Part shown: positions 1 to 17,414 of the stretch, in pieces
Position numbering within the stretch: the first letter of the stretch is position 1
Layout of the letters: each line of letters begins with the position of its first letter
DNA from: an uncultured Opitutales bacterium
GTDB lineage: Bacteria > Verrucomicrobiota > Verrucomicrobiia > Opitutales > Intestinicryptomonadaceae
Length of the DNA stretch: 17,414 nucleotides
Assembly (NCBI GenBank): GCA_934660865.1
Contig: CAKUIA010000025.1
Span: 1-17,414, forward strand
Reading direction: 5' to 3'
Notes under the pieces: model-generated
Databases searched by the model: none
Told to the model about the DNA's origin: nothing
What the model saw: only the letters and a program-made list of their open reading frames with translations
Made by a program: the position numbers and the translations under genes

Positions 1-87
1 AAACTGATACAGCGACGAGCCTACGGGTATAGAAACTTTGAAAATTACAGACTGAGAGTACTCGTAGAATGCGGAGTGAAACTATGA
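1..87 (+). CDS. ISL3-family DDE transposase, extreme C-terminus only (the gene begins upstream of the window)
   Basis: Frame 1 reads KLIQRRAYGYRNFENYRLRVLVECGVKL then TGA at 85-87. The AYG(Y/F)RNFxN(Y/F)RLR(V/I)L tail is the conserved C-terminal signature of ISL3 (IS204/IS1001/IS1096/IS1165-type) transposases. Confidence 0.8.
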   Translation, partial: KLIQRRAYGYRNFENYRLRVLVECGVKL

Positions 88-136
88 AAAACAAATTACA
101 AAAAAAAACTTATTCCACAACCTTTGGGGTTGACCC
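1..136 (+). mobile_element. Terminal part of ISL3-family insertion sequence, copy A (cut by the window edge). The IS terminus is ...CCTTTGGGGTTGACCC at 136.
   Basis: Positions 61-136 match the reverse complement of 17338-17414 with 3 substitutions (at 76, 78, 108). Similarity stops exactly at 136 / 17338, which defines the element end. Confidence 0.75.
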
Positions 137-196
137 AACACAAAAGCCGCCGTTTTGCGCTTTAACGCAAATGCAAAAAACAAATCTTATACGGGC

Positions 197-225
197 ACAA
201 AAAAGCCGCCCTAAAAAGGCGGCTT
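197..225 (-). terminator. Rho-independent terminator downstream of tRNA-Cys
   Basis: Stem AAGCCGCC (203-210) pairs with GGCGGCTT (218-225) around a 7 nt loop. On the minus strand it is followed by a T-run. Confidence 0.7.
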
Positions 226-231
226 AAAAAT

Positions 232-306
232 TGGAGGTACGAGTCGGAATCGAACCGACGAATAAGGATTTTGCAGACCCTCGCCTTACCACTTGGCTAT
301 CGTACC
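232..306 (-). tRNA. tRNA-Cys (anticodon GCA), CCA encoded
   Basis: The reverse complement folds by hand as GGTACGA acceptor / TCGTACC. The anticodon arm is AGGGT-CTGCAAA-ATCCT, the T arm is GTCGG-TTCGATT-CCGAC, and the 3' end is TCCA. Confidence 0.93.
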
Positions 307-406
307 ATCAAATAAAGACACAAAGAAAATATATTTTAGGCAAACTTTGCAAGCTTTTTTTTAATATACCTGCAAAAAATGCCAAATGCGCGTTTGTCGG
401 GTAAAA

Positions 407-1096
407 TTAGAAGGAAACTTGGTACAATTCGTTCAGGGCTTTCTTAAGCTCGGCTTCGCTAATCCAAATGGGCTCGGCACCGTACCACATAAGGTATTCG
501 CCCGTTTGCTTGTTGTAGCCCGAAATCATTGTATCCGACCAAATCCTGCCCTTTTTAAAGCTTTTAACTTCGTTCTTTTTAAGGATTTTTGTCCATTCGG
601 CCATTTTTTCGGCTTCTTCGGGGCGGTCTTTTGTGCGCAGGGCAATTTTTTCGTAAGATGGGTTGTCGGCCGAAACGTAGGCAAACAGGGGCAAACCTTC
701 GTCGAGCTTCATTCTCACGTTGTTTGCCGAAAACGAAATCATTTTAAGCTTTATGTTTTTAGACGCCAAATAGGCTTTGGAAACCGCCATAATCGACGCA
801 ATTTTGTTGCTTGCCCCCTTGTTCATTTTTTCGGAGAACTTTTCAAAATCCATATCGGGGTCTACATAGGTAAGCAATATTGCCAGATACGGCGACAAAT
901 ACCTGCTTTCTAGCCCCTTTGGCGCCGAATCGGGAATTTTTATGGTAATGTCGCCGTTCTTCGCGGTTTTGTCGACATTTTCAAGCAGGCTTTCCCTGAT
1001 TTCTTTTTTTGAAGTTTTTGCCTTTGCCAAGTCGTCTGCAAAGGAAAACGTGCAGGCTACGAATATCAGAAGAAGAGAAATAATTTTTGTTTTCAT
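407..1096 (-). CDS. Exported hypothetical protein (signal peptide, possibly a lipoprotein via FVAC), 229 aa, immediately downstream of murB
   Basis: ATG start. The N-terminus MKTKIISLLLIFVACTFSFA is a typical signal sequence. It is same-strand with murB and 65 nt away, and its composition matches the neighbours. I recognised no family motif. Confidence 0.7.
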   Translation of the reverse strand: MKTKIISLLLIFVACTFSFADDLAKAKTSKKEIRESLLENVDKTAKNGDITIKIPDSAPKGLESRYLSPYLAILLTYVDPDMDFEKFSEKMNKGASNKIASIMAVSKAYLASKNIKLKMISFSANNVRMKLDEGLPLFAYVSADNPSYEKIALRTKDRPEEAEKMAEWTKILKKNEVKSFKKGRIWSDTMISGYNKQTGEYLMWYGAEPIWISEAELKKALNELYQVSF

Positions 1097-1161
1097 TTTT
1101 TTACCTTTGTTGAAATGTTATAGATATGGCTACGCGCAATTCAAGCAAATAATTATACTTT

Positions 1162-2043
1162 TTATTTCAAAATTCGCATTTCCAATTCAAGGTTTATCTT
1201 GAATTTGTCGTACACGCATTTTTGTATGTGCTCTACCAAAGCCAAAATGTCGCCATAAGACGCGTTGTTTTCGTTTAAAATCCAGTTGGCGTGTGCGCGG
1301 CTTACAACGGCCCCGCCAACCGAAAAGCCCTTTAAATTGCATTGCTCTATATAGTAGCCCGCCGAAACGTTGTTTACGTTCTTAAAAACGCTGCCGACAT
1401 TTTTATTGTTCCTGGGTTGGCGCAACTTTCTTTGCGAAATTGCCTGCGCGATTTTCTCGGAAATGTTAAAGTCGGTTTCCAGCGTATGGAATTTTGCCGA
1501 AATTAGCGCGTAGTTGCCACCCTGTAAAATGCTGCTTCGGTAGGCAAACAGCATATCGTTTTTATCCAACTCCACTACTTTGCGCGCCTTTATGTCTACT
1601 GCCAAAGCGCTGCAAAACAGCGAGGAAATCTCGCGCCTTTCGGGGCGCGAAATGCCTACATTCATACATACTGCCCCGCCTACGCTGCCGGGTATGCCCG
1701 CCAAAAAATCGGTACCGCCAACATTGTTTTTTGCCCAAAAAGCAAGCAAGCCAGGCAGCGGCATAGACGCCAAAACCGTTGTGTAGCCGTCCGCAAACTG
1801 CGGGGCTCTTACAAACGGCTTAAAATGTATAAGCAAAAAATCGCCAAGGGTATCGGCAACCAAAGTGTTGTAGCCGCCGCCCAATATTTTTACCGGCAAA
1901 TTCTTTTCGGCCGCAAATTCCAACGCCTTTTCGATAACGCCAATGTCGCAAGCCGAGGCGTCCAGATAATAACGGCACGCCCCGCCGCATTTAAAGCCGC
2001 AAAAAGGGGCAAGCAAAACGTTTTCTTTTATGAATTCGGGCAT
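1162..2043 (-). CDS. murB: UDP-N-acetylenolpyruvoylglucosamine reductase MurB
   Basis: 293 aa with the MurB layout: FAD-binding N-terminal part (FKCGGACRYY, ILGGGYNTLV, AGIPGSVGGAVCMNVG), then FAYRSS, then GSVFKN...AGYYIE...LKG..VGGAVVS..HANWILN. Confidence 0.9.
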   Translation of the reverse strand: MPEFIKENVLLAPFCGFKCGGACRYYLDASACDIGVIEKALEFAAEKNLPVKILGGGYNTLVADTLGDFLLIHFKPFVRAPQFADGYTTVLASMPLPGLLAFWAKNNVGGTDFLAGIPGSVGGAVCMNVGISRPERREISSLFCSALAVDIKARKVVELDKNDMLFAYRSSILQGGNYALISAKFHTLETDFNISEKIAQAISQRKLRQPRNNKNVGSVFKNVNNVSAGYYIEQCNLKGFSVGGAVVSRAHANWILNENNASYGDILALVEHIQKCVYDKFKINLELEMRILK

Positions 2044-2155
2044 TTAAAAATATTCAAAATAAAAAAGACCGCTTTCAAGAAAAAAACGCAAACGGTTCAA
2101 ACACAGCAAAGCGTGGTTTTTTGCCGCGGCAAAACAACTATATAACGGCTTTGCT

Positions 2156-4153
2156 ATGAGCGAAATCAACACACTATATGTAAATGCAGCCCAAACACCC
2201 GCAAACGGGCAAAACGGCGAAATTTTGCGTTTTAAACAAGGCGACGACATAAACCTTTCCGTTGCCTTTTTCGACAAATCGGGCAACCTGCGCGACCTGT
2301 CGCAGGCGGAAAAAATAGTACTTGAAATATACGACATAGGCGGCTACAACAGCCCCGCGCCAAGGCAATCGGAAATTTTGCTGCAAAAAATCTGCAGTTC
2401 GCCAAACAAAGATTTGCAGCTTTTGCAATGGCAAAACAAAACGGCGCAACACGCTCTTTTTGAATTGGACGCAAGCGAGACAAATATTAAAAGCGGCGAA
2501 AAATGGCTAAAATTTACGGCCGTTTGCGAAAAGCATAAGAAATTTACACTTTGCGCGGGTTGGATTGAATGCGAGGAAAACTTTTGCGCAGGCGACGCAT
2601 ATACACCGCCAGACGTGGAAAAATGGAAATCGGCAGCCGAAAGCGCCGCGCAAAGCGCGCGGGCCAACGCCCTTTTGGCCGAGGGCTACGCCGTCGGCAC
2701 TCAAAACAGCGCAGAAAGCCAATATGGCGAAAATTGCGCAAAATACTTTTGCGAAAAAGCGGGGCAAAGCGCGGTAAATGCCGCAAATTCCGAGCTAAAG
2801 GCAAAACAGTATACCGAAAGCGCAAGCGCAAGCAAAAGTGCAGCCGATGGATTTTGCCAAACCGCACAGCTTGCAAAAACCGACGCCGTTAATGCAAAAG
2901 ACGAGGCTTTAAGCGCAAAAACGGCCGCGCAAAATGCTGCAAACGCAGCCGCCCAAACCGACGTTGGGCAATATAAAATCCAAAAGGAAAACAGGAATTT
3001 TTTGCACATAATAAACGGCGAAGCAAAGACGGCATTTTCGCTAAAGCCGCCTTTTACCATATTGGTAAAAACCGAGAAATATTCGGGCACGCTGTTTAAC
3101 GTGGGCAACCTGAAAATTCTGACGGCCTACAGCGTAATTAGAGCGTATAACAACACAAACGAAAAAATGCTTTTAAGCGTGTCTACAAATATAAACGGCG
3201 TAAACTGCACCGCCATTGTATGCACAAAATCGCAGCTGAAAATTTCGGCAAACACGGGGGTTTTTAGCCAGGCAAATTTTGAATTCGACACGCAGGACAA
3301 CGGCGATTTTACCATAGGTAGCACTTCGCTTGGCAGCGGCAAGGTTGCCGACATTACGGTGCTTAATTTCGACATAACTTCGGACGAATCGCCCTACTCT
3401 TTTGCCGACTATGCTCAGGGCAAAAGCATGCCGCCATATCTTATAAACCCGACTACAAAAAACCCCGACAAAAATATGGGGGCTACAAGCGACGGAGGCT
3501 GGAATATTGGGCAGGCCACTACAACCACAACAATGCGCGGCACTTGGTACGCAAGCCCTACGGCAATACACTACCTAAAAAACAGAGTTTTAGACGAAAG
3601 CGAAATTGCCCTCGGCATAAACAATGCAGTAGACATTGCGGGGACTTATATAGGCGGCGGCACGGGCTGTTTATATTCGAGCGTTTCGGTTTTCGGATAC
3701 GGGAAAGTTACGCTAAGGATAAAGTTTAAATACCGCAAAAACACCACAAGCAATTCAAGCTCGCCGTATTTGGGCTTGGCCGTAGGCACGCTTGGCGGGC
3801 ACATTTTGTTTGCGCAAATAAAGCTAAGCGACTGCACCGACAGCCAGTGGCATACATACGAAACTACCGTAACTGAAACCGTTCCAAGATGGATTCAAAG
3901 CGATATTAACGGTAGAATAGGCATAAGCGCAAGCTCGCTACCCGACACATACACCGACTACGCGTGGAGCATTGCCGATTTCGAGTTCGAATTTTTGGGG
4001 GCTACATTGGCATTGGAAAATTTTACATTTAAAAACGGAACGACAAAAACAATTCCCGACAAGTCGGCGCAAAACAGCAACGTTCTTGTAAGCGGCTACA
4101 TTGCAAGCCCCGTCGACAACACAATAGAACGCCTTTGCAATCTATTCAAATAG
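2156..4153 (+). CDS. Phage tail-fibre-like / receptor-binding-like protein, 665 aa, no signal peptide
   Basis: Three-part architecture. First, an N-terminal ~150 aa globular part. Second, an Ala/Ser/Gln-rich predicted helical shaft (about nt 2618-2981) reading WKSAAESAAQSARANALLAEGYAVGTQNS...SAVNAANSELKAKQYTESASASKSAA...AKTDAVNAKDEALSAKTAAQNAANAAAQ, the pattern typical of tail-fibre shafts. Third, a ~390 aa beta-rich C-terminus whose first half looks LamG/concanavalin-like (TILVKTEKYSGTLFNVG...GKVADITVLNFDITSDESPYSFADYAQG). The family call is by motif memory only. Confidence 0.55.
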   Translation: MSEINTLYVNAAQTPANGQNGEILRFKQGDDINLSVAFFDKSGNLRDLSQAEKIVLEIYDIGGYNSPAPRQSEILLQKICSSPNKDLQLLQWQNKTAQHALFELDASETNIKSGEKWLKFTAVCEKHKKFTLCAGWIECEENFCAGDAYTPPDVEKWKSAAESAAQSARANALLAEGYAVGTQNSAESQYGENCAKYFCEKAGQSAVNAANSELKAKQYTESASASKSAADGFCQTAQLAKTDAVNAKDEALSAKTAAQNAANAAAQTDVGQYKIQKENRNFLHIINGEAKTAFSLKPPFTILVKTEKYSGTLFNVGNLKILTAYSVIRAYNNTNEKMLLSVSTNINGVNCTAIVCTKSQLKISANTGVFSQANFEFDTQDNGDFTIGSTSLGSGKVADITVLNFDITSDESPYSFADYAQGKSMPPYLINPTTKNPDKNMGATSDGGWNIGQATTTTTMRGTWYASPTAIHYLKNRVLDESEIALGINNAVDIAGTYIGGGTGCLYSSVSVFGYGKVTLRIKFKYRKNTTSNSSSPYLGLAVGTLGGHILFAQIKLSDCTDSQWHTYETTVTETVPRWIQSDINGRIGISASSLPDTYTDYAWSIADFEFEFLGATLALENFTFKNGTTKTIPDKSAQNSNVLVSGYIASPVDNTIERLCNLFK

Positions 4154-4167
4154 AAAGGAAAAAATAT

Positions 4168-4368
4168 ATGGATATAAACCTAAAAAACGGATCTAAGTTT
4201 AAGATAAAATACATAAAAGTGGTAGGCACCATTACCGACTCGAACGGGCTTGAAGCGGGCGGAAACACCGAATTTAAGTTCGACGAATCCGAAATCGGCA
4301 ATCTCGACAAAAAAGTTTGCCTACAGCAGATATACAACGCAATGCAGGCCGAAAACGAAGATGTATAG
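4168..4368 (+). CDS. Small hypothetical protein, 66 aa, possibly a tail-fibre accessory/chaperone (speculative)
   Basis: ATG at 4168 lies 14 nt after the upstream stop and is preceded by AAAGGAA (4154-4160). I prefer this internal start to the track's 4135 start. The stop overlaps the next start (ATGTATAG). No recognisable motif. Confidence 0.5.
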   Translation: MDINLKNGSKFKIKYIKVVGTITDSNGLEAGGNTEFKFDESEIGNLDKKVCLQQIYNAMQAENEDV

Positions 4369-4786
4369 CGAACAAAAGATAGAATCTTTGCTGCAAACGG
4401 CAAAGGCCGCCCGACTGATTATCCCCGAAGAAATGCTTGCCTGCGAAAGAAGCGCGCTTGCAAAAATCTGCAACGGAGTAGGCAGCCAGTCTATGCCAGA
4501 GTGGGCGCGAAACGCGGGCAACGTGTTTTTTGGCGCAATAGAAGCGTCGGCGGCCATACACGACTATATGTACGAATTTTCGGACGGCTCGCTATACCTA
4601 AAGGAAAAGGCCGACGACATATTTCTGCTAAACGGCATAGACGAAATATACCACAAATACGGCTGGTGGAATTGGAAAAGATACGCCGCCCGCCTAAAAC
4701 TTATGGCAGCCTACGACATTCTGCGCGCAGTGGGCAACCGCGCATACATAACCGCATACATTAAAAGAAGGAAAAACGAATTATGA
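4361..4786 (+). CDS. DUF1353-like phage-associated protein, 141 aa
   Basis: ATG at 4361 overlaps the preceding stop by 8 nt. The pattern NGVGS..MPEW...(20)...SAAIHDYMY...KADDIF...LRAVGNRAY resembles the DUF1353 signature (xxDxxSIPxxxW ... AAxxHDxxY ... ADxxF ... aVrxxG). Recalled from memory, not searched. Confidence 0.5.
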   Translation: MYSEQKIESLLQTAKAARLIIPEEMLACERSALAKICNGVGSQSMPEWARNAGNVFFGAIEASAAIHDYMYEFSDGSLYLKEKADDIFLLNGIDEIYHKYGWWNWKRYAARLKLMAAYDILRAVGNRAYITAYIKRRKNEL

Positions 4787-5157
4787 GAATAAGCAGCATA
4801 TTTGCACTGGCGGCCATAGTGCTTGCCGGGTGCACAACAACAAAAATAACCGAAACCGAATACGAGAAGGATTCTTCGAACATAAAGTCGGTTAAGACAA
4901 CCGAAACAAACGCAAACCCCGTTGTTGTTTTTGCGCAAAACAGCAAAGACAAGTCGTGGGTGCTGCACCAGGGCGGCTGGCGCTTTAACATAGGCTATGC
5001 CGACTGGGGGCTTTCGGGCGGGGTTTTAAACAACACCTTTGCAAGCTTTACAAACAGCCAGTTCGGAGTAAAGACGGCGCTGGCGTGCCCCGAAATTCTC
5101 TCAAGCGGCAAATATAACATAAATATAAACAAAGACGGCGTAAAAAGCGAAAACTAA
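4783..5157 (+). CDS. Small lipoprotein, 124 aa
   Basis: ATGA start/stop overlap with the upstream gene and a purine-rich AAGGAAAAA upstream. The N-terminus MRISSIFALAAIVLAGC carries a canonical lipobox (LAG-C). Confidence 0.65.
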   Translation: MRISSIFALAAIVLAGCTTTKITETEYEKDSSNIKSVKTTETNANPVVVFAQNSKDKSWVLHQGGWRFNIGYADWGLSGGVLNNTFASFTNSQFGVKTALACPEILSSGKYNININKDGVKSEN

Positions 5158-5186
5158 AAGGTACAACAAACGCCGGTTTTCGAAAC

Positions 5187-5215
5187 TTGACAATGGCATA
5201 GTAAATGTCTTTTAT
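5187..5215 (+). promoter_or_regulatory. Candidate sigma70-like promoter for tRNA-Pro
   Basis: TTGACA (5187-5192), a 17 nt spacer, then TTTTAT (5210-5215), ending 16 nt before the tRNA 5' end. The -10 hexamer is weak. Confidence 0.3.
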
Positions 5216-5230
5216 TTTTCGGATAAATTT

Positions 5231-5305
5231 CGGGTGATAGCGCAGTCTGGCTAGCGCACCTGGTTTGGGACCAGGGGGTCGTGGGTTCGAATCCCACTCG
5301 CCCGA
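5231..5305 (+). tRNA. tRNA-Pro (anticodon UGG), CCA not encoded
   Basis: Hand fold: acceptor CGGGTGA/TCGCCCG, D arm GCGC-AGTCTGGCTA-GCGC, anticodon arm CCTGG-TTTGGGA-CCAGG, T arm GTGGG-TTCGAAT-CCCAC, discriminator A. Confidence 0.93.
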
Positions 5306-5314
5306 CATTTCGTA

Positions 5315-5350: not shown

Positions 5351-5426
5351 TAGGCCTAAAAGCCAAGTTTTGGGGAAATTTTCCCTCTTAAAAATCGTTT
5401 ACAATTATTTACGCCTAATTGCTTTT

Positions 5427-10816: not shown

Positions 10817-12106
10817 ATGAAAGACAAATTAAACGTATTGGTTATTGGTTCCGGCGGCCGCGAGCACGCCATTGTAAAGGCGGTTGTAAATTCTCCTTTG
10901 GCTGCAAAGGTATTTTGCGCGCCCTCAAACGGAGGCATTTCGCAAGACTGCCAAAGTGCCGACATTCCCGTAAGCGACCTCGACAAAATTCTGGATTTTT
11001 GCAAAGCCGAAAAGATTGACTTTGTTATTTGCGGGCCCGAAGTGCCCCTTTCGCTCGGCTTGGCCGACCTTTTAAGGGAAAACGGCATTGCAGTTTACGG
11101 GCCGAATAAAGACGGCGCGCAGCTTGAGGCAAGCAAGGCTTTCAGCAAGGCCTTTATGCAAAGGAACAACATTCCGACGGCAATAGGCAAAAACTTTACC
11201 GATTTTGAAAGCGCAAAAAGCTACATAGAAAGCGTGCCCTTTAACGTGGTTGTAAAAGCCAGCGGCTTGGCTGCGGGCAAAGGCGTTATAATACCCGAAA
11301 GCAAAGACGAGGCTATTTCGGCGGCAAAAGACATGCTGTTGAACAAGTCTTTCGGCGAAAGCTCGGCCGAAATTGTTGTAGAGGAAAAAATGGAGGGCGA
11401 AGAAGCCAGCATAATGCTTATTGTTTCGGGCAAAAACTATATTATGCTTCCGCCGAGCCAAGACCACAAACGCATTGGCGAAGGCGACAAAGGCCTTAAT
11501 ACGGGCGGTATGGGTGCCTACGCCCCCGCCGCCGTTGTTACAAAAGAAGTTGAAGCCGACGTAAGGCAGAACATAATTCAGCCCACACTAAACGCCCTGG
11601 CGGCCGAAGGCATAGACTACCGCGGAACTTTGTATGTCGGCATAATGATTACAAAACAGGGCGCAAAGGTTGTGGAATATAACGTGCGCTTCGGAGACCC
11701 CGAATGCCAGGTTTTAATGCCGCTTATAAAGTCCGACGCGCTGGAGATTTTGTTCGACGCAGCCTGCGGCAATTTAGACCCCAGCAAGTGCGAAATTAAA
11801 GACGAATTTGCGGCCACTGTTGTAATGACTTCGAAAGGCTACCCGAATGCCTACGAAAAGGGAAAAGTAATAAGCTTTCCCGACAAGTGCCCCAAAGACG
11901 CCTATATAATACACAGCGGCACAAAAAGGAACGCCGAAGGCAAAATAATAACTTCGGGCGGCAGGGTTTTAAGCATAACGGCAACGGGCAACACGCTGGA
12001 AAACGCGCTTAAAAAGGCATATTCTTTGGTATCCGAAATATCGTTTGAAGGCGCCTATTACCGCAAAGACATTGCACACCGCCAGCTGGCGAGAAACAAA
12101 AAATAG
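10817..12106 (+). CDS. purD: Phosphoribosylamine--glycine ligase PurD
   Basis: 429 aa. It shows VLVIGSGGREHAI, the ATP-grasp core VVVKASGLAAGKGV, GEEAS, DHKR.GEGD.G.NTGGMGAY, and EYNVRFGDPE. Confidence 0.95.
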   Translation: MKDKLNVLVIGSGGREHAIVKAVVNSPLAAKVFCAPSNGGISQDCQSADIPVSDLDKILDFCKAEKIDFVICGPEVPLSLGLADLLRENGIAVYGPNKDGAQLEASKAFSKAFMQRNNIPTAIGKNFTDFESAKSYIESVPFNVVVKASGLAAGKGVIIPESKDEAISAAKDMLLNKSFGESSAEIVVEEKMEGEEASIMLIVSGKNYIMLPPSQDHKRIGEGDKGLNTGGMGAYAPAAVVTKEVEADVRQNIIQPTLNALAAEGIDYRGTLYVGIMITKQGAKVVEYNVRFGDPECQVLMPLIKSDALEILFDAACGNLDPSKCEIKDEFAATVVMTSKGYPNAYEKGKVISFPDKCPKDAYIIHSGTKRNAEGKIITSGGRVLSITATGNTLENALKKAYSLVSEISFEGAYYRKDIAHRQLARNKK

Positions 12107-12110
12107 CAAA

Positions 12111-12602
12111 ATGCCAAACAAACGCGACAGTGTAATATTCCTTTGCACGGGCAATGTTTGCCGCTCGCCGATGGGCGAGGCGCTGCTTAAGCACGCAATA
12201 GCGGCCCTGCCCGAAAACAGCCCCCTAAAAAAGCTGCGGGTTATGTCGGCCGGAACAAGCGCGGCAGTTGGCGGCTATGCCTCGCCAAACTCGGTAAAGG
12301 CGCTCGAAAAAGTCGGCATTTCGCTTAAAAACCACAAGCCCCAACAGCTTACAAAAGAGCTTTTGGGCACCTGCTTTGCACTTGTTGCAATGGAGGATAT
12401 GCACCTGCAAATAGCAAAGGCGTATTTCGGCGACTATATTCCCGAAAACTCGTTTACCCTGCTTTCGCTTTCGGGCAAAAGCGGCTGCGACGCCGACATT
12501 TCAGACCCCTTCGGAATGTCCCAAAAAGTATACGACCACGTCCGCGACGAAATCGTGTCGGGCATTCCAAATCTCGTAAAATTTTTACAGGAAAAACTAT
12601 GA
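12111..12602 (+). CDS. Low-molecular-weight protein phosphatase (LMW-PTP / YwlE-like), 163 aa
   Basis: The P-loop CTGNVCRSPMGE (C-X5-R-S) is near the N-terminus and DISDPFG is near the C-terminus. I chose the ATG at 12111, 5 nt after the purD stop; the track's upstream extension overlaps purD. Confidence 0.85.
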   Translation: MPNKRDSVIFLCTGNVCRSPMGEALLKHAIAALPENSPLKKLRVMSAGTSAAVGGYASPNSVKALEKVGISLKNHKPQQLTKELLGTCFALVAMEDMHLQIAKAYFGDYIPENSFTLLSLSGKSGCDADISDPFGMSQKVYDHVRDEIVSGIPNLVKFLQEKL

Positions 12603-13030
12603 AAATAAGCATTGGTAGCGACCACGGCGGCTTCGACTTAAAAGAGGAAGTCTGCCAATATCTTAAATCCAAACAAATAACAGTAGACGACTGCGGCTGC
12701 TTCGGCAGGGAAAGCGTAGACTACCCCGACTATGCAAAGGCGGTATCCAAAAAAGTCTCCGACGGCGAAAGCGACTACGGCATTTTAATCTGCACAACGG
12801 GCATAGGCATGAGCATTACCGCAAACAAATTCCCGAAAATTAGGGCGGCCCTTTGCGTAAACGAAAATATGGCCGAAATGACCCGCCGCCACAACAACGC
12901 AAATGTCCTTTGCCTTGGCGCGCGCTACACTCCCATCGAAGAGGCAAAAAAATTGGTGGATATATTTTTGTCCACTCAATTCGAGGGCGGCAGACACCTG
13001 CGCAGGGTCGAAAAAATCTCGGCCTGCTAA
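12599..13030 (+). CDS. rpiB: Ribose-5-phosphate isomerase B (RpiB/LacAB family)
   Basis: 143 aa. It shows MKISIGSDHGGFDLKEEV, GILICTTGIGMSITANK, and RHNNANVLCLGAR. It has an ATGA overlap with the upstream phosphatase gene. Confidence 0.93.
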   Translation: MKISIGSDHGGFDLKEEVCQYLKSKQITVDDCGCFGRESVDYPDYAKAVSKKVSDGESDYGILICTTGIGMSITANKFPKIRAALCVNENMAEMTRRHNNANVLCLGARYTPIEEAKKLVDIFLSTQFEGGRHLRRVEKISAC

Positions 13031-13071
13031 ACTTGACATTTAACGACAAAACCAGCTAATATACCTAAATT

Positions 13072-14331
13072 ATGAATAAAGCAATAAGCGCAATTCCCCT
13101 AAAACAACTCGACCCCGAAGTATTCAACGCAATACGCTCGGAAACAAACCGCCAACAAACGCATATCGAATTGATTGCGTCGGAAAACTTCACATATCCG
13201 GCAGTAATGGAAGCGGCCGGCTCTACATTGACAAACAAATATGCCGAAGGCTATCCGAAAAAGAGATACTACGGCGGCTGCCAGTTTGTAGACGTTATAG
13301 AGCAGTTGGCAATAGACAGGGCAAAAGCTCTTTTCGGCGCCGAACACGTTAACGTACAACCCCACTCCGGCTCGCAGGCAAACTTGGCGGTATATTCGGC
13401 GGTGCTTACTCCGGGAGACAAAATTTTGTCGCTTTCGCTGGACCACGGCGGCCACCTAAGCCACGGCCACCCTATGAATATGTCGGGCAAGCTCTACAAC
13501 ATTGTAAGCTACGGCGTAGACAAGGAAACCGAAATGCTAAACTACGACAAGATAGAAGAACAGGCCATGGCGGAAAAGCCCAAGCTGATTGTTGTGGGAG
13601 CTTCGGCATATCCGAGAATTATAGACTTTAAAAGAATGGGCGAAATTGCGCAAAAATGCGGCGCAATGCTTATGGCCGACATCGCCCACATTGCGGCTTT
13701 GGTTGCAACCGGCGTGCACCCCACCCCCGTTCCCTACTGCGACTTTGTAACTACAACAACGCACAAAACGTTGCGCGGCCCCCGCGGCGGCATAATTATG
13801 TGCAAAGAAAAATACGCAAAGGCGATTGATTCGGCCGTGTTCCCCGGCAACCAGGGCGGGCCTTTAATGCACATTATAGCGGCCAAGGCAGTTTGCTTTA
13901 AACAGGCCGCCACCGACGACTTTAAGGAATACGCGAAGCAGGTTGTAGCCAACTGCGCCGCTTTGGCCGACGCTTTAAAGGAAAAGGGCTTTAAGCTTGT
14001 TTCGGGCGGCACCGACAACCACCTTATGCTGCTCGACTTTAGGACAAGCCACCCCGACTTGACCGGTAAAGACGCGCAAGCCGCTCTCGAAAAGGCGAAC
14101 ATTACCACAAACAAAAACACGGTGCCCTTCGAAACGCGCTCGCCGTTTAAGGCAAGCGGTGTAAGGTTGGGAACTGCGGCGGTAACATCGCGCGGTATGG
14201 GCGTTGAGGAAATGAAGCAAATTGCGCAGGCAATAAGCATTGTTTTGGCAAACCCCGAAAGCGAAGAAGGCATTGCAAAGGCCAAGAACATTGTTTTGGA
14301 CTTGTGCAAAAAGTTCCCCCTTCCCTACTAA
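13072..14331 (+). CDS. glyA: Serine hydroxymethyltransferase GlyA
   Basis: 419 aa. It shows [35 protein letters not shown], the PLP-lysine motif [14 protein letters not shown], and FPG.QGGPLMH. Confidence 0.97.
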
Positions 14332-14427
14332 TTAAAAAAAGCTTGATTGTTAAGAGTAGTTCGTGTTATATTCCGAATTACTCTAACAAACACTTTACCA
14401 ACAAAAATAATAATTAAATCTACTGAA

Positions 14428-15111
14428 ATGAAAAAATCAAACAAACGAGCGTTTACCCTAATCGAACTTCTTATCGTCGTCGGTATTATCGGCGTATTGG
14501 CAGGCTTGCTTTACCCTGCAATGAGTAAATTTACAAGCACGGGCCCCAAGGTAAAGTCGATGAACAACGCGCGTCAGATTGCGCAGGCATGGATGAACTA
14601 TGTTAAAATGGGTCAAAGGCAGCACATAGTTTCGAAGCCCGACGTATGGCAGTGGGCGGCGGTTCTCGCCGAAAAGGCCGACTTGAACCTCCCCGAAATG
14701 TGGATTCTTTCGAACGACCCGAAAGTTCTTGCCAAGCTCGACGGCGAAAACGCGGCAATGCCCGTTAACGTAGCAAAAAAAGTTGGCAACAACTGGTCTT
14801 TGGATCCCGAATTCAACAAATTCCCCGTAAGCTGGTCGGTTGCAAACGCAGTTTTGGCAAATGCCGAAGCCACAGTTCCCCTAATCTGGACAAGAGGCCT
14901 TAAGCCCAGCGGCATGTGGGACGAAGAAAACGGCGTGTTCGGCGCAGACGGCGGCCACATTGCCTTTGCCGACGGCCACGTTGAATGGTATACATCGCTT
15001 AGAGACGAAAACACAAAGCAGGGTATCCTGCACGTCTACAAGCAAACACAGCGCACCTACAATATTTCGCAGGCCATTAAGGGCGGCTCGCAAAACATCT
15101 TAAACCCGTAA
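14428..15111 (+). CDS. Prepilin-type N-terminal cleavage/methylation domain protein (orphan pseudopilin-like), 227 aa
   Basis: MKKSNKRAFTLIELLIVVGIIGVLAGLL is the class III signal / N-methylation motif. The C-terminal GGHIAFADGHVEW resembles the DGHV tail of the expanded pseudopilin-like families in PVC-group bacteria. I chose the internal ATG at 14428. Confidence 0.8.
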   Translation: MKKSNKRAFTLIELLIVVGIIGVLAGLLYPAMSKFTSTGPKVKSMNNARQIAQAWMNYVKMGQRQHIVSKPDVWQWAAVLAEKADLNLPEMWILSNDPKVLAKLDGENAAMPVNVAKKVGNNWSLDPEFNKFPVSWSVANAVLANAEATVPLIWTRGLKPSGMWDEENGVFGADGGHIAFADGHVEWYTSLRDENTKQGILHVYKQTQRTYNISQAIKGGSQNILNP

Positions 15112-15137
15112 TTTTTACGGCAAAAGATTGCAAAAGG

Positions 15138-15165
15138 CGCACCCGATTTCGGGTGCGTTTTTTTG
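15138..15165 (+). terminator. Rho-independent terminator after the pseudopilin-like gene
   Basis: Stem CGCACCCG pairs with CGGGTGCG around an ATTT loop and is followed by TTTTTTT. Confidence 0.85.
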
Positions 15166-15450
15166 TGTTTTTCGAGTGCACCTTTTTTGTGCCGTCAGTT
15201 TGTGAACACGACACACAAAAAAAGCTTTTTTGCACTTTATTTATAAAATACACATGGAATTTGCGCGCATTATAATACAAGCCTATATTTTGTTTTGCTT
15301 TTGCTTAAGGCGGCCGCTTTAAAATTTTGCTTACATATGGCGACATATCATCTACAAATTCGTCTGCAAACAACCCGACGCAAAAACCTGCGCAACGCCC
15401 CTTTTTATTCTAGGCGTTAATCACATATTTACACGGCACACGGCGCGCAC

Positions 15451-15484
15451 AAAAAAACGCCGCTTTTTTATGTTGGCGGCGTTT
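15451..15484 (-). terminator. Rho-independent terminator after the MFS transporter gene
   Basis: Stem AAACGCCGC (15455-15463) pairs with GCGGCGTTT (15476-15484) around a 12 nt loop. A T-run follows on the minus strand. Confidence 0.6.
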
Positions 15485-15515
15485 GCATATTTAAAATTAA
15501 CCTGCAAAAGCAATA

Positions 15516-16850
15516 TTATTTGCCTACAAGCTCTTTTTGTATTTCCTCAAGCGACTTTTCGCTAGTATCGGGCAGCTTTAATGCAAACACAAACGTTAAG
15601 GCCGACATAAGCGCAAATACGCCGAAAGTGTATGTGGCAAAGCCCGACTCGACAACAATCGGGAAAATCCACGTTATAATTGCGCACCAAACCCAGTGAA
15701 CCATACTGCCGAACACCTGCCCTTTTGCGCGCACGCTGTTGGGGAAAACTTCGGCTATAAGCACCCAAATAACCGCGCCCATAGATGCTCCGAAAGCGCC
15801 TATATACAGCATTAAAAAGCCCAGCATATAATAGCCCGAAACGGCCTGGCCGTTAAAGAACCCGTATGATACTCCGCACAAGGCAATGGTCATAAACACC
15901 GAGCCTACATACAAAAGTTTTTTGCGCCCTACGCAGTCGATAAGCACCATGCCAACTATCGTAAATATAAGGTTTGCCACCCCTATGAACATAGACTGGA
16001 ACATTGCCGACCCCCTGCCTATGCCAGCGGTTTCCAGTATGCGCGGCGCATAGTAGTTTATCGCGTTAATGCCCGACCACTGGTTGAATGTAGAAATGAA
16101 AAACGCTATTAAAAGCGGCTTAAAATATTTGCTTTGAAAAAGCCTTTCGCTAATGCTTGTTGCGCAAAGCGAGCTTTTTATTGTGGCAAAAGTTTCGGCA
16201 ATATTGGCGCCGCCAACCTTGTCTAAAACATTGTAGGCCTTTTCCTCTTTGCCGTATTTAACAAGCCAGCGCGGGCTTTCGGGCACGGTAAAAAGCAAAA
16301 CGGCAAACAAAAATGCGGGCAAAGCCAAAACGCCGAGCATAATGCGCCAATCGTTTGCACCCAAATTTAAACTGCTTATATACCAGTTGGAAATGTACGA
16401 GCACAAAGCCCCCAAAACTATGTTGAACTGGAAAAACCCCACAAACCTGCCGCGCCATTGCGAGGGGGAAATTTCGGCTATGTACATCGGGCCTACCACC
16501 GACGAAGCGCCCACGGCCAAGCCGCCCATAAATCTGAATATAATAAGCGCATACCAATTTACAACAAGCGCGCAACCCAACGCCGAAATAAAATAAAGAT
16601 ATGCAATAATCTTTAAAGACTCTATTCTGCCGAGTTTTTCGGCGGGCTTGCCGCAAAACAATGCGCCCGCAATGGTACCGAACAAGGCGGTTGCCATTGT
16701 AAAGCCGTGCAGGAAATCCGACAGGGCATATTGTGCCTGAATCCCCTTGTCGGCGCCCGAAATAACTATGGTGTCGAACCCGAAAAGAAAGCCCCCAAGC
16801 GACGCTACAAAGGCTATATAGAACATAAAAGGTGTAATTTTCTTATTCAT
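15516..16850 (-). CDS. MFS sugar-porter family transporter (sugar/inositol:H+ symporter type), 444 aa
   Basis: 12-TM layout with GFLFGFDTIVISGA, GRIESL (GRK/R-like loop), PESPRWLVKYGKEEKA, PETSEKSLEEI-like PDTSEKSLEEIQ, and GRKKLL. I prefer the ATG at 16850 (MNKKITPF) to the TTG at 16865. Confidence 0.9.
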   Translation of the reverse strand: MNKKITPFMFYIAFVASLGGFLFGFDTIVISGADKGIQAQYALSDFLHGFTMATALFGTIAGALFCGKPAEKLGRIESLKIIAYLYFISALGCALVVNWYALIIFRFMGGLAVGASSVVGPMYIAEISPSQWRGRFVGFFQFNIVLGALCSYISNWYISSLNLGANDWRIMLGVLALPAFLFAVLLFTVPESPRWLVKYGKEEKAYNVLDKVGGANIAETFATIKSSLCATSISERLFQSKYFKPLLIAFFISTFNQWSGINAINYYAPRILETAGIGRGSAMFQSMFIGVANLIFTIVGMVLIDCVGRKKLLYVGSVFMTIALCGVSYGFFNGQAVSGYYMLGFLMLYIGAFGASMGAVIWVLIAEVFPNSVRAKGQVFGSMVHWVWCAIITWIFPIVVESGFATYTFGVFALMSALTFVFALKLPDTSEKSLEEIQKELVGK

Positions 16851-17024
16851 AAGTGTAGGCTGCAATTATCTTTATTTTTAGAAACTATTACAAACATAAA
16901 ATGGAAATAATTTTCGGGAAAGCTTTGATACAAAAAAATCAAAAATTTCAATTATTTGCTTGCAAGACACAGTTTTTTTGGCAAACTCAAAAGCTTTAAA
17001 TCGTGTTAAAGCGATTTGGAACAA

Positions 17025-17115
17025 GGAGAGGTGGCGGAGTGGCCGATCGCGCTGGTTTGCTAAACCGGTGTAGGGAGTTAAACCCCTACCGTGAGTTCGA
17101 ATCTCATCCTCTCCG
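17025..17115 (+). tRNA. tRNA-Ser (anticodon GCU), long variable arm, CCA not encoded
   Basis: Hand fold: acceptor GGAGAGG/CCTCTCC, anticodon arm CTGGT-TTGCTAA-ACCGG, a long variable arm (TGTAGGG...CCCTACC), T arm GTGAG-TTCGAAT-CTCAT, discriminator G. Confidence 0.92.
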
Positions 17116-17125
17116 CGTTCCCTAC

Positions 17126-17155
17126 CCTTTTGGAATTTCCCAAAAGGTTTTTTTG
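17126..17155 (+). terminator. Rho-independent terminator after tRNA-Ser
   Basis: Stem CCTTTTGG (17126-17133) pairs with CCAAAAGG (17140-17147) and is followed by TTTTTTT. Confidence 0.8.
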
Positions 17156-17337
17156 TGCATAAAACTTTGCGGAAATTTTTAGCATTCCGCCTTCTATTGG
17201 CAAAATTGCAATTTCCCGAAAAAACGCTAAAGCCGTTTTGTTTTTTATACGGCTTAAAGATTGTTTTGCTTTTCCATAAAAAGCATTTTTAGGGATTCTT
17301 TTTCCTCTTCGCGCACAACTGTATAGCCCGAATTTTC

Positions 17338-17414
17338 GGGGTCAACCCCAAAGGTTGTGGAATAAGGTTTTTTTTGTAATTTGTTTTTCATAGTTTTATT
17401 CCGCATTCTACGAG
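17338..17414 (-). mobile_element. Terminal part of ISL3-family insertion sequence, copy B (inverted relative to copy A, cut by the window edge)
   Basis: The reverse complement equals 61-136 except for 3 substitutions. The terminus GGGTCAACCCCAAAGG starts at 17338. Confidence 0.75.
17388..17414 (-). CDS. ISL3-family transposase, last 8 codons only (the gene begins beyond the window)
   Basis: The minus strand reads LVECGIKL then TGA (17388-17390), against LVECGVKL* in copy A. Confidence 0.7.
   Translation of the reverse strand, partial: LVECGIKL

What the first reader, a model, noticed from the sequence alone, without database searches (positions are those of the whole stretch)
1..17414. GATC is almost absent from the native-composition DNA but near-random in the island that carries a Gm6ATC-dependent nuclease
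A manual both-strand scan (GATC is its own reverse complement) found only 9 GATC sites, starting at 4190, 5860, 6360, 6439, 6490, 7381, 7543, 14803 and 17045.

Six of these lie in the 3.4 kb AT-rich island (5306-8732), about one per 0.6 kb. Two of the six are inside the DpnI-like gene itself. Only three lie in the other ~14 kb, about one per 4.7 kb against roughly one per 0.25-0.3 kb for random sequence. One of those three is inside tRNA-Ser, where the sequence is structurally constrained.

This is not simple GAT or ATC codon avoidance. GATT, GATA, GATG and AATC, TATC, CATC occur dozens of times in the same genes.

Such tetranucleotide-specific avoidance is the classical footprint of long-term exposure to GATC-directed restriction. 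Its co-occurrence with a methyl-GATC-dependent enzyme on apparently newer DNA suggests an ongoing GATC-centred conflict. Possible forms are a dam-minus host, a history of DpnII/MboI-type systems, or DpnI/DpnII-style cassette switching as in pneumococcus.
Basis: partly seen in the sequence, partly recalled or inferred. Interest (0 to 1): 0.72.

Follow-up and report, generated by a model that had tools for sequence, protein, structure and literature searches.

The report
GATC-poor gut bacterium with borrowed DpnI
A gut Verrucomicrobium (order Opitutales) whose DNA strongly avoids GATC and several other short palindromes has picked up, in some strains only, a nuclease gene from Bacteroidetes that cuts methylated GATC; this pairing has been reported before in other bacteria, so it is a clean new example and not a new phenomenon.

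Summary
**Observation.** The count is exact: 9 GATC sites at the stated positions, 6 of them in 5307-8732 and 2 inside a full-length DpnI-family gene (7042-7815, minus strand).

**The avoidance is real.**
- Window core genes have 2 GATC against 10.8 expected when protein sequence and codon usage are kept.
- Two sister Opitutales species have 3 and 4 against about 25.
- In 51 kb of pooled clade DNA, GATC is the most depleted of all 136 4-mers.
- New GATC sites arose about 8-fold less often than other 4-mers while these species diverged.

**It is not GATC-specific.** CTAG, CCGG, CATG and GTAC are also avoided, which is an ordinary multi-site restriction-avoidance footprint.

**The core-versus-island contrast is weak.** P = 0.0015 under a zero-order model but 0.17 under the maximal-order Markov model.

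**The island is smaller than described.** Only 6437-8144 varies between strains. It holds an ISL3 remnant plus a truncated Bacteroidota-type cassette (the 3' end of a KilA-N gene, then DpnI, about 86% nucleotide identity). The alternative allele is 337 bp of non-coding DNA, so there is no DpnI/DpnII switch at this locus.

**Donors are GATC-poor too.** All four GATC sites in the insert are single-base derived changes.

**Prior report.** Rusinov et al. 2015 found GATC under-represented in 38 of 42 DpnI-encoding genomes.

The parts
1..5306 (.). Left core block (tRNA-Cys, murB, unknown genes, tRNA-Pro); GATC-poor, with one site at 4190
   Evidence: GC 0.456. Syntenic with sister species L011 and L012 over 196-5348 at about 81% nucleotide identity. 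Genes.
4190..4193 (.). Core GATC site inside a 66-aa gene (4168-4368)
   Evidence: Conserved in the DpnI-less strain L004, but GTTC in both sister species, so it is a lineage-specific gain.
5231..5306 (+). tRNA-Pro (TGG); synteny with sister species ends just downstream
   Evidence: ARAGORN and Rfam. Synteny ends at about 5348. Beyond it L011 carries a type I-C CRISPR-Cas operon and L012 carries an intact ISL3 plus a gene of unknown function.
5307..6436 (.). AT-rich segment shared with DpnI-less strains; holds a 194-aa ORF of unknown function (5744-6328, minus strand) and GATC sites 5860 and 6360
   Evidence: GC 0.365. 95-98% identical in L004 and L005, and both GATC sites are conserved there. 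Absent from sister species.
6437..8144 (.). Strain-variable insert of 1.7 kb, replaced by 337 bp of non-coding DNA in DpnI-less strains
   Evidence: BLAST of the window against L004, L005 and L006. Junction sequences. No significant ORF in the empty allele. No terminal inverted repeats. Homology on the right resumes at about 8135-8145.
6438..6988 (-). ISL3 transposon remnant with an internal deletion; the transposase C-terminal fragment ORF is 6513-6773
   Evidence: PF01610, E = 1e-12, profile positions 170-235 of 240 only. 74-87% nucleotide identity to pieces of the intact ISL3 in L012.
6439..6442 (.). GATC site in the ISL3 remnant, 2 nt inside the insert junction
   Evidence: The intact ISL3 copy in L012 has GGTC at this position.
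6490..6493 (.). GATC site in the ISL3 remnant
   Evidence: The intact ISL3 copy in L012 has GACC at this position.
7042..7815 (-). DpnI-family Type IIM (Gm6ATC-dependent) restriction endonuclease gene, 257 aa, apparently intact
   Evidence: - PF06044 (E = 1e-71, full length) plus PF17726 (E = 4e-29).
- Colinear with pneumococcal DpnI (PDB 4ESJ), E = 2e-71.
- E25, D53, E64, K66 and two CXXC motifs conserved.
- Recognition-helix residues D/K/R/Q/Q against E228/K229/R231/Q232/Q235 in DpnI.
- GC 0.354.
7381..7384 (.). GATC site inside the DpnI gene
   Evidence: AAG-ATC here; AAC-ATC in all four Bacteroidota homologs compared (Asn to Lys).
7543..7546 (.). GATC site inside the DpnI gene
   Evidence: CGG-ATC here; CGA-ATC or CGT-ATC in the homologs (a synonymous change).
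7818..7946 (-). Remnant of the 3' end (about 43 codons) of the KilA-N gene that precedes DpnI in donor-type cassettes
   Evidence: tblastx at 65-74% aa identity to the KilA-N 3' ends of L019-L023. Nucleotide similarity to L013, L014 and L019 spans window 6990-7949 at about 86%.
8145..8732 (.). AT-rich segment shared with DpnI-less strains; holds a ribbon-helix-helix ORF (8377-8577, minus strand) and a hairpin at about 8326-8358
   Evidence: GC 0.350. RHH_1, E = 8e-8. The 66-aa product is identical in L004. Terminator-like stem.
8733..17414 (.). Right core block (RodZ-like, lptF/G, purD, LMW phosphatase, rpiB, glyA, prepilin-type protein, MFS sugar transporter, tRNA-Ser); GATC-poor, with sites at 14803 and 17045
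   Evidence: GC 0.471. Pfam matches. 98.3% identical in L004, L005 and L006.
14803..14806 (.). Core GATC site in the N_methyl (prepilin-type) gene
   Evidence: Conserved in L004, L005 and L006.
17045..17048 (.). Core GATC site inside tRNA-Ser (GCT)
   Evidence: Conserved in L004, L005 and L006.

Best explanation
**Organism.** The window comes from an uncultured gut Opitutales bacterium (Verrucomicrobiota).

**The avoidance.** Its chromosome carries a classical multi-site restriction-avoidance footprint. GATC, CATG, CCGG, GTAC and, in this species, CTAG are each several-fold rarer than protein sequence and codon usage predict. The avoidance is shared with sister species and was still suppressing new GATC sites while they diverged. 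It therefore predates the DpnI gene seen here and is independent of it.

Its most likely cause (inferred, not shown) is recurrent carriage in this lineage of orthodox Type II systems that cut unmethylated GATC and the other palindromes.

**The DpnI gene.** It is a later, horizontally acquired fragment of a defence cassette that circulates in gut Bacteroidota: the 3' end of a KilA-N gene followed by DpnI. It lies beside an ISL3 remnant in a variable spot downstream of tRNA-Pro. Only some strains have it.

The enzyme keeps every catalytic, zinc-binding and methyl-reading residue of pneumococcal DpnI. It should therefore cut fully methylated Gm6ATC in incoming phage or plasmid DNA from Dam-positive sources. 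That is tolerable only if the host does not methylate its own GATC (inferred).

**GATC density of the insert.** The ordinary density reflects four single-base changes accumulated at about the background rate on a small, dispensable and partly decaying segment. It is not a GATC-rich donor signature.

**Prior knowledge.** The co-occurrence of a DpnI-like gene with a GATC-poor genome is an instance of a published regularity.
For: - **Count and depletion.**
- **Codon-preserving null.** GATC O/E is 0.19 in the window core, 0.12 in L011 and 0.15 in L012, and no shuffle was as low.
- **Ranking among all 4-mers.** GATC ranks 1st of 136 in 51 kb of pooled clade DNA (11 against 50.4). The top four are all palindromes. 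Palindromes against non-palindromes: Mann-Whitney P = 2e-4.
- **Lineage-specific membership of the avoided set.** CTAG is 0.16 here against 1.10 and 0.76 in the sisters. GGCC is 1.05 here against 0.49 and 0.53.
- **Ongoing constraint.** 2 GATC gains per 700 opportunities (0.0029) against 0.0234 overall, the 2nd lowest of 136.
- **Organism.**
- **Presence/absence polymorphism.** Exact boundaries and an empty allele. DpnI-less strains keep the same few GATC sites.
- **Variable cargo after tRNA-Pro.** CRISPR-Cas I-C in L011 and ISL3 in L012.
- **DpnI identity and residues.**
- **Bacteroidota origin.** Nearest homologs at 79-86% aa are named Sodaliphilus, Prevotellaceae, Prevotella and Bacteroidaceae. 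86% nucleotide identity covers the gene plus a KilA-N remnant. L013 is flanked by a SusC-like receptor and GH3 genes.
- **Donor-type genomes are GATC-poor.** O/E is 0.09-0.40 across L013, L015-L018, L020, L021 and L023. Of the eight donor DpnI gene copies counted, six have no GATC and two (L021, L022) have one.
- **Insert sites are derived.**. The gain rate in the DpnI gene is 2 of 44 against 1.1 expected.
- **Literature.** 38 of 42 DpnI-encoding genomes under-represent GATC (PMC4687349). The Neisseria drg gene is a low-GC GmeATC endonuclease (PMC4269198).
Against: - No GATC-cutting orthodox system, Dam-family methylase or methylation data could be examined for this organism. Only about 17 kb of it and about 37 kb of sister species were reachable. 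The proposed cause of avoidance is therefore inference.
- Within the window alone, the maximal-order Markov depletion is modest (3 against 9.6, P about 0.014).
- Under that model the core-versus-island contrast is not significant (P = 0.17).
- The gain-rate test uses non-independent species pairs, and its two 'gains' are one site counted twice.
- If selection against GATC acted uniformly along the chromosome, four new sites in 1.7 kb of insert is more than expected. This is left unexplained, apart from a possible history outside this genome.
- Expression of the truncated cassette is not shown. It has only a consensus-level promoter match at 8071-8044, and such matches are no more frequent in this region than chance predicts.
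- The DpnI-positive allele was seen in only one or two samples, which may be the same sample.
Confidence: 0.6

Rival explanations
1. DpnI-type enzymes themselves select for GATC scarcity. A cell carrying DpnI is killed if an incoming phage or plasmid Dam methylase marks its chromosome. Lineages that repeatedly carry DpnI would then evolve few GATC targets to survive such events.
For: Every independent DpnI-bearing lineage sampled here is GATC-poor. The published association is 38 of 42 genomes, and those authors called it surprising and unexplained. The closest DpnI homologs contain no GATC.
Against: - The avoidance is equally strong in conspecific strains that lack the insert.
- It is equally strong in sister species whose homologous site carries other cargo.
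- The DpnI copy here is a recent, strain-variable, cross-phylum import.
- Several other palindromes that DpnI does not recognise are avoided just as strongly.
- Other DpnI copies elsewhere in these genomes could not be excluded.
Confidence: 0.15
2. A pneumococcus-like population polymorphism: strains of this species alternate between a DpnII-like system (methylates GATC, cuts unmethylated GATC) and DpnI. GATC scarcity eases DNA exchange and limits self-damage during switches.
For: - Rusinov et al. report that species or genera with DpnI-like genes often have GATC-specific orthodox systems in other strains.
- In related cassettes from other genomes (L021, L022), the KilA-N/DpnI/DpnD-methylase cassette abuts a 79-aa N-terminal fragment of a Dam-family methylase. 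DpnI cassettes therefore do displace dam-type genes in the donor pool.
Against: - At this locus the alternative allele is 337 bp of non-coding DNA with no GATC and no methylase or nuclease.
- The insert keeps no dam or DpnD sequence.
- No DpnII, MboI or Dam gene was seen in any of the roughly 54 kb of clade DNA examined.
- A switch at a different locus cannot be excluded.
Confidence: 0.15
3. The island-versus-core contrast is chance plus composition. The AT-rich island simply has more GAT and ATC trinucleotides, and six sites in 3.4 kb carry no biological message.
For: - Under the maximal-order Markov model the expected share of sites in the island is 0.45, and P(6 or more of 9) = 0.17. For the true 1.7-kb insert P = 0.28.
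- The DpnI gene has 2 GATC against 1.35 expected. The homologs' zero counts are individually unremarkable (P = 0.12-0.21).
Against: - Lower-order nulls give P = 0.0015 to 0.027.
- The gain rate in the DpnI gene (2 of 44) exceeds the core's rate (0.0029) with P = 0.007.
- All four insert sites are derived relative to every homolog sampled.
Confidence: 0.3
4. The GATC scarcity is a by-product of codon usage, amino-acid content or general mutational bias, with no selection on the word itself.
For: Much of the raw 18-fold deficit disappears with better nulls: 54 expected from base composition, 18.5 from dinucleotides and 9.6 from trinucleotides. CTAG is depleted in most bacteria regardless of R-M content.
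Against: - Shuffling synonymous codons within genes still predicts 5-8 times more GATC than observed in three species, and no shuffle was as low.
- The most depleted 4-mers are specifically palindromes.
- Ten of sixteen palindromes in the window core, including AT-rich and GC-rich ones, are not depleted.
- The avoided set differs between sister species of similar composition.
Confidence: 0.05

Closest known systems
R.DpnI of Streptococcus pneumoniae (Type IIM, PDB 4ESJ/4KYW) and its dpnC/dpnD cassette
   Same: - Same two-domain architecture, colinear over 255 residues (E = 2e-71).
- Same catalytic residues E25, D53, E64 and K66, and the same two CXXC zinc motifs.
- Recognition helix nearly identical.
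- Found in some strains and not others.
   Different: - No dpnD partner gene in the window.
- No alternative DpnII (dpnM/dpnA/dpnB) cassette at the same locus. The other allele is empty.
- The host is a Gram-negative gut Verrucomicrobium.
- The gene arrived as a truncated Bacteroidota-type KilA-N/DpnI unit next to an ISL3 remnant.
Neisseria drg / NmeBII 'dam-replacing gene' (same Pfam family PF06044)
   Same: - About 40% aa identity over the full length.
- A low-GC foreign gene (40.5% against 52% in the gonococcus; 35% against 46.5% here) encoding a GmeATC endonuclease.
- Variable among strains (PMC4269198 and PMC516771).
   Different: In Neisseria the gene sits in the leuS/dam locus and displaces dam. 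Here it lies downstream of tRNA-Pro with no dam remnant. A dam-fragment arrangement does occur in related Bacteroidota-type cassettes (L021 and L022).
Published association of GATC under-representation with DpnI-like Type IIM genes (Rusinov et al. 2015, BMC Genomics 16:1084, PMC4687349)
   Same: A genome encoding a DpnI-like enzyme under-represents GATC (O/E 0.31 here against their threshold of 0.78). The authors found this in 38 of 42 genomes and noted it was unexpected for a methyl-directed enzyme.
   Different: - This adds phyla. The species that paper names in the passages read are Firmicutes and Proteobacteria; here the carriers are a Verrucomicrobium and several gut Bacteroidota MAG lineages.
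- In this case the avoidance predates the DpnI insertion and was still constraining new sites during speciation.
Classical restriction-site (palindrome) avoidance in bacterial genomes
   Same: - Short palindromes are selectively depleted relative to non-palindromes.
- Composition or codon usage does not explain it.
- The set of avoided sites differs between close relatives.
   Different: The cognate restriction systems were not identified here. CTAG depletion is common even without a cognate system.

Membership tests
DpnI family Type IIM restriction endonuclease (PF06044 + PF17726) | N-terminal PD-(D/E)XK DpnI catalytic domain, full length | tested here: met
   PF06044, E = 9.5e-72, residues 1-182 against profile positions 1-182 of 183. 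Colinear with 4ESJ.
DpnI family Type IIM restriction endonuclease (PF06044 + PF17726) | Catalytic residues E25, D53, E64 and K66, and two CXXC zinc-binding motifs | tested here: met
   Residues defined in PMC3424567. All are identical in the HMMER alignment to 4ESJ, with CPIC at 34-37 and CDNC at 56-59.
DpnI family Type IIM restriction endonuclease (PF06044 + PF17726) | C-terminal winged-helix domain whose recognition helix pockets both N6-methyl groups (E228, K229, R231, Q232, Q235) | tested here: met
   PF17726, E = 3.7e-29. The aligned residues are D, K, R, Q, Q: four identical and one conservative E-to-D change.
DpnI family Type IIM restriction endonuclease (PF06044 + PF17726) | Cleaves Gm6ATC and spares unmethylated GATC | not testable with these tools
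   Needs enzyme assays on Dam-positive and Dam-negative DNA. Inferred from residue conservation and from Neisseria Drg keeping this specificity at about 40% identity.
DpnI family Type IIM restriction endonuclease (PF06044 + PF17726) | Host lacks GATC adenine methylation (dam-minus) | not testable with these tools
   Only 17 kb of this genome was reachable. No methylase lies in the window. No methylation data are available.
Restriction-site avoidance footprint | Site under-represented relative to a Markov expectation (Kr of 0.78 or less in PMC4687349) | tested here: met
   GATC O/E under the maximal-order model is 0.31 (window core), 0.16 (L011), 0.23 (L012) and 0.22 pooled.
Restriction-site avoidance footprint | Not explained by codon usage or amino-acid content | tested here: met
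   Synonymous-codon shuffles give O/E 0.19, 0.12 and 0.15, and no shuffle was as low.
Restriction-site avoidance footprint | Palindromes preferentially depleted relative to non-palindromic words | tested here: met
   The top four of 136 4-mers are palindromes. Mann-Whitney P is 1e-4 to 4e-4 in each species.
Restriction-site avoidance footprint | Cognate restriction system (here one cutting unmethylated GATC) present in the genome or close relatives | not tested
   None was seen in the roughly 54 kb of clade DNA examined.
   In the window core CTAG is 0.16-0.22, CCGG 0.23-0.47, CATG 0.33-0.37 and GTAC 0.44-0.60. Ten other palindromes are at or above expectation under the codon-shuffle null.
Pneumococcal-type DpnI/DpnII alternative cassettes | Alternative allele at the same locus encoding a GATC methylase plus a nuclease for unmethylated GATC | tested here: not met
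   L004, L005 and L006 carry 337 bp of non-coding DNA with no GATC instead.
Pneumococcal-type DpnI/DpnII alternative cassettes | DpnD partner gene adjacent to DpnI | tested here: not met
   An ISL3 remnant lies downstream of DpnI in the window. A DpnD-PcfM domain fused to a methylase is present in related cassettes L020-L022.
Neisseria-type dam-replacing gene | Inserted at or into a dam gene, leaving dam sequence at the junction | tested here: not met
   tblastx of the insert against L021 and L022, which include a dam fragment, matched only the KilA-N end and DpnI. No MethyltransfD12 hit in the window ORFs.
Neisseria-type dam-replacing gene | Markedly lower G+C than the host chromosome | tested here: met
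   DpnI gene GC is 0.354 against core 0.456-0.471. The gene is also AT-rich (0.354-0.395) in the Bacteroidota hosts measured, so low GC says little about how recently it arrived.

The most novel reading that the evidence does not exclude
GATC scarcity and DpnI carriage may be causally coupled across unrelated gut phyla. One mobile KilA-N/DpnI cassette family moves between Bacteroidota and Verrucomicrobia and is retained only in genomes that are already GATC-poor and dam-minus. Such genomes can survive transient Dam methylation by invading elements. On this reading the GATC content of a genome predicts which lineages can host methyl-GATC-directed defence, and the gut community is partitioned by a shared GATC-methylation arms race with its phages.
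Probability: 0.15. Interest if true: 0.5.

Novelty: new member of a known kind. Interest (0 to 1): 0.3.

Why it matters
This is a well-resolved natural example of a pairing that is published but still unexplained: methyl-GATC-directed nucleases occur in genomes that avoid GATC.

Here the order of events can be read from the sequences. The avoidance came first and persisted through speciation. The DpnI gene arrived later by cross-phylum transfer into a variable defence spot.

That ordering argues against this DpnI copy being the cause of the avoidance. It points instead to a pre-existing GATC-poor, presumably dam-minus background as the permissive condition.

Beyond that, it is an ordinary defence-gene acquisition and an ordinary restriction-avoidance footprint.

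Tried and rejected
1. **Walking along the 99-kb conspecific contig for more core DNA.** The window's left-end proteins (the 229-aa ORF and MurB) are not identical in that contig, so the exact-match look-up could not reach it. I used sister-species loci from the one genome-contig scan instead.
2. **Finding the clade's phages through CRISPR spacers.** The aim was to test whether the phages avoid GATC or carry Dam. L011 has a type I-C cas operon, but no array lies within the fetched 20 kb.
3. **An ISL3-bounded composite element carrying DpnI.** No terminal inverted repeats flank the insert.
4. **A structured RNA or riboswitch in the AT-rich region.** Rfam finds only the three tRNAs.
5. **DpnI on phages or plasmids.** There was one partial phage hit, and the only 'plasmid' hits were Neisseria gonorrhoeae records of about 2.17 Mb (chromosome-sized) held in the plasmid set.
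6. **GGWCC avoidance as the cause of the GGAC and GACC deficits.** The order-3 expectation gives only O/E 0.58-0.74 on tiny counts, which is inconclusive.
7. **A GATC-rich donor as the explanation for the island's GATC.** Rejected. The closest homologs have no GATC and their host genomes are GATC-poor.
8. **Structure prediction.** Not run, because a solved homolog aligns end to end.

Full report
**1. The observation**

Six lie in the AT-rich stretch 5307-8732, whose GC is 0.363 against 0.465 elsewhere.
- Sites 7381 and 7543 are inside the gene at 7042-7815.
- Site 17045 is inside tRNA-Ser.

In the 13,988 bp outside the island there are 3 sites. The island has 6 against 8.0 (O/E 0.75).

This is roughly right: GATA 30, GATT 36, AATC 54 and TATC 31, but GATG 10 and CATC 13.

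**2. Is it selection on the word?**

I shuffled synonymous codons within each gene, which keeps protein sequence and codon usage fixed.
- The window's core genes then expect 10.8 ± 2.8 GATC and have 2. None of 500 shuffles was as low.
- The same test flags other palindromes in the window: CTAG (O/E 0.16), CATG (0.33), GTAC (0.44) and CCGG (0.47).
- Ten of the sixteen 4-bp palindromes are at or above expectation.

Among all 136 strand-symmetric 4-mers, the four most depleted in the window core are palindromes (CTAG, CCGG, GATC, CATG).

So the deficit is real and acts at the DNA level, but it is not specific to GATC. It is the usual picture of multi-site restriction avoidance.

**3. Organism and depth of the signal**

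A scan of species-representative genomes with the window's MurB found two uncultured gut Opitutales MAGs at 78% aa identity (L011 and L012). They are syntenic with window 196-5348 at about 81% nucleotide identity.

| Sample | GATC observed | Maximal-order Markov expectation | Codon-shuffle O/E |
|---|---|---|---|
| L011 (20.9 kb) | 3 | 19.2 | 0.12 |
| L012 (16.2 kb) | 5 | 22.2 | 0.15 |

In both, GATC is the single most depleted palindrome. Pooled over 51 kb of clade DNA, GATC is the most depleted of all 136 4-mers (11 against 50.4).

The avoided set differs between lineages. CTAG is avoided only in the window species, and GGCC only in the sisters. This is what changing restriction repertoires would produce and a fixed mutational bias would not.

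**4. Relic or ongoing?**

In the three-species alignment of the syntenic block, I counted how often a word one mutation away from X in one species is X in another.
- For GATC this happened twice in 700 opportunities. Both counts are the single site 4190.
- The rate is 0.0029 against 0.0234 for 4-mers overall, the second lowest of 136. CCGG, CTAG and CATG are also low.

The species pairs are not independent, so the P-values are overstated, but the rank is informative. New GATC sites were being kept out while these species diverged.

**5. Anatomy of the island**

Contigs from conspecific strains (98% identity; L004 from a 99-kb contig, L005 and L006) have the same flanking genes but no DpnI and no transposase fragment. 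Alignment shows that only window 6437-8144 is strain-specific. In those strains it is replaced by 337 bp of non-coding DNA that contains no GATC.

The AT-rich flanks are shared with DpnI-less strains, and their two GATC sites are conserved there:
- 5307-6436, with a 194-aa ORF of unknown function.
- 8145-8732, with a ribbon-helix-helix ORF.

The insert consists of:
- an internally deleted ISL3 remnant (6438-6988);
- the DpnI gene;
- about 43 codons of the 3' end of a KilA-N gene (about 7818-7946);
- about 190 bp of unassigned sequence.

No inverted repeats bound the insert.

Synteny with the sister species stops just after tRNA-Pro. There L011 carries a type I-C CRISPR-Cas operon, and L012 carries an intact ISL3 and a gene of unknown function. 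The site is therefore a variable spot that holds defence and mobile genes in at least two of the three species.

**6. The gene**

The 257-aa product matches Pfam DpnI end to end (E = 1e-71) together with the DpnI C-terminal winged-helix domain (E = 4e-29). It is colinear with pneumococcal DpnI, PDB 4ESJ (E = 2e-71).
- The experimentally validated active-site residues E25, D53, E64 and K66 and both CXXC zinc motifs are conserved (PMC3424567).
- The five recognition-helix residues around the two N6-methyl groups (E228, K229, R231, Q232, Q235) are D, K, R, Q and Q.

Specificity for methylated GATC is therefore a strong inference, but it was not assayed.

Expression is unproven. The upstream gene of the donor-type operon is truncated, and only a consensus-level promoter match lies upstream (8071-8044). 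Such matches are no more frequent in this region than chance predicts.

**7. Origin**

The nearest homologs (79-86% aa) that carry names are all Bacteroidales: Sodaliphilus, Prevotellaceae, Prevotella and Bacteroidaceae. One of the closest (L013) is flanked by a SusC-like receptor and GH3 genes.

Nucleotide identity of about 86% covers window 6990-7949. That span is the gene, about 50 bp downstream of it, and the KilA-N remnant.

In those genomes DpnI sits in defence or mobile contexts:
- with GmrSD and an IS3 transposase;
- with AIPR and a methylase;
- as KilA-N/DpnI/DpnD-methylase cassettes.

The gene is AT-rich (35-39.5% GC) in the hosts measured. As with Neisseria drg, low GC is a family trait here and not a clock.

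**8. The donors avoid GATC too**

Flanks of every independent DpnI-bearing lineage I could sample are GATC-poor.

| Locus | GATC O/E (maximal-order Markov) |
|---|---|
| L015-L018 | 0.13-0.22 |
| L020 | 0.17 |
| L021 | 0.09 |
| L023 | 0.09 |
| L013 | 0.40 |

GATC ranked first or second among palindromes in each. The closest homologous DpnI genes contain no GATC.

Both GATC sites in the window's DpnI are single-base changes relative to all four homologs compared (CGA/CGT-ATC to CGG-ATC; AAC-ATC to AAG-ATC). Both sites in the ISL3 remnant are GGTC and GACC in the intact copy in L012.

So the island's ordinary GATC density was not imported from a GATC-rich donor. It reflects four point changes.
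- This is about the background rate for the DpnI gene: 2 gains in 44 opportunities against 1.1 expected.
- It is above the core's rate, P = 0.007.

The numbers are small. Under the strict Markov null the island-versus-core contrast is not significant (P = 0.17).

**9. What is already known**

Rusinov et al. 2015 (PMC4687349) reported that GATC is under-represented in 38 of 42 genomes encoding DpnI-like Type IIM enzymes. They called this surprising, because methyl-directed enzymes should not harm unmethylated hosts. [quoted passage not shown]

What this case adds:
- New host phyla.
- A clear temporal order: avoidance first, DpnI later.
- An empty alternative allele, which rules out pneumococcus-style cassette switching at this locus.

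In related cassettes elsewhere (L021 and L022), an N-terminal 79-aa fragment of a Dam-family methylase abuts the cassette. Displacement of dam-type genes by DpnI does therefore occur in the donor pool.

**10. Limits**

I could read only about 17 kb of this organism and about 37 kb of its sister species. I could not test:
- whether the host has Dam, DpnII-like or further DpnI genes;
- whether its GATC is methylated;
- whether its phages avoid or methylate GATC.

The cause assigned to the avoidance (recurrent orthodox restriction systems) is inference from the pattern and from the literature.

Noticed in passing
L021:2145-2384 and L022:467-706: A 79-aa ORF matching only the N-terminal 54-57 positions of Dam-family methylases (PF02086, TIGR00571). 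It lies directly upstream of a KilA-N / DpnI / DpnD-PcfM::N6_N4-methylase cassette. This is a 'dam-replacing' arrangement like Neisseria drg, but in genomes carrying the Bacteroidota-type cassette.
   Followed up: partly
L020:1665-1777 (same in L021:4007-4119 and L022:2328-2440): Four GATC sites cluster within about 110 bp of the spacer between DpnI and the DpnD::methylase gene. They include two TGATCA sites 10 bp apart, just upstream of a TAnnTTTG-like box. The cassette's coding genes have almost no GATC and the host flanks are GATC-poor. This could be a methylation-sensing control region. The three loci are 99% identical, so this counts as one observation.
   Followed up: partly
L011:135-5821: The sister species carries a type I-C CRISPR-Cas operon (Cas3 C-terminal end, Cas5d, Csd1, Cas7, Cas4, Cas1) immediately beyond the same tRNA-Pro where the window carries the DpnI island. 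No repeat array lies within the fetched locus.
   Followed up: partly
window 5492-5553; L004:4945-5005; L012:4170-4225: A repeat of about 60 bp (GCGCCACAAGCTTTGAGGTAATTGTGCCACACCTTTGAGAATTTTTTGGAGACAACGCA) lies downstream of tRNA-Pro. DpnI-less strains have a second copy inside the 337-bp segment that the insert replaced, so in them two direct copies bracket the 197-aa ORF. Its function is unknown.
   Followed up: no
window 1-136 and 17339-17414: Window 1-59 matches the ISL3 region of L012 at 86%, and window 1-42 weakly matches the window's own ISL3 remnant. Short stretches at the two ends of the source contig also match each other at 95-96%, and a third ISL3-like piece sits at the contig end (L001 17395-17500). 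The contig probably breaks in a multi-copy repeat that includes ISL3.
   Followed up: partly
window core, L011, L012: Several non-palindromic 4-mers are also depleted in all three species (O/E 0.4-0.75): GGAC/GTCC, GACC/GGTC, GTCA/TGAC and GTGA/TCAC. A test for GGWCC avoidance was inconclusive (O/E 0.58-0.74 on very small counts).
   Followed up: partly
window 8377-8577 (minus strand) and about 8326-8358: A 66-aa ribbon-helix-helix (CopG/HicB-antitoxin-like) ORF was not called by the source's gene finder. It is identical in DpnI-less strain L004 and is followed by a GC-rich hairpin with a T-run. No toxin partner is evident.
   Followed up: no
window 2156-4153, 4168-5157, 407-1096: A conserved block of genes has no Pfam match (665, 66, 141, 124 and 229 aa). 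It is syntenic in both sister species and lies between murB and tRNA-Pro. The 141-aa product has a weak, sub-threshold DUF1353 hit.
   Followed up: no
L015-L018:10001-13870: In a Sodaliphilus-like lineage DpnI heads a small defence island with an AIPR abortive-infection protein, an AF_1447-family small protein and a CcrM-like N6/N4 methylase. The same island sits next to different neighbours in different samples.
   Followed up: no
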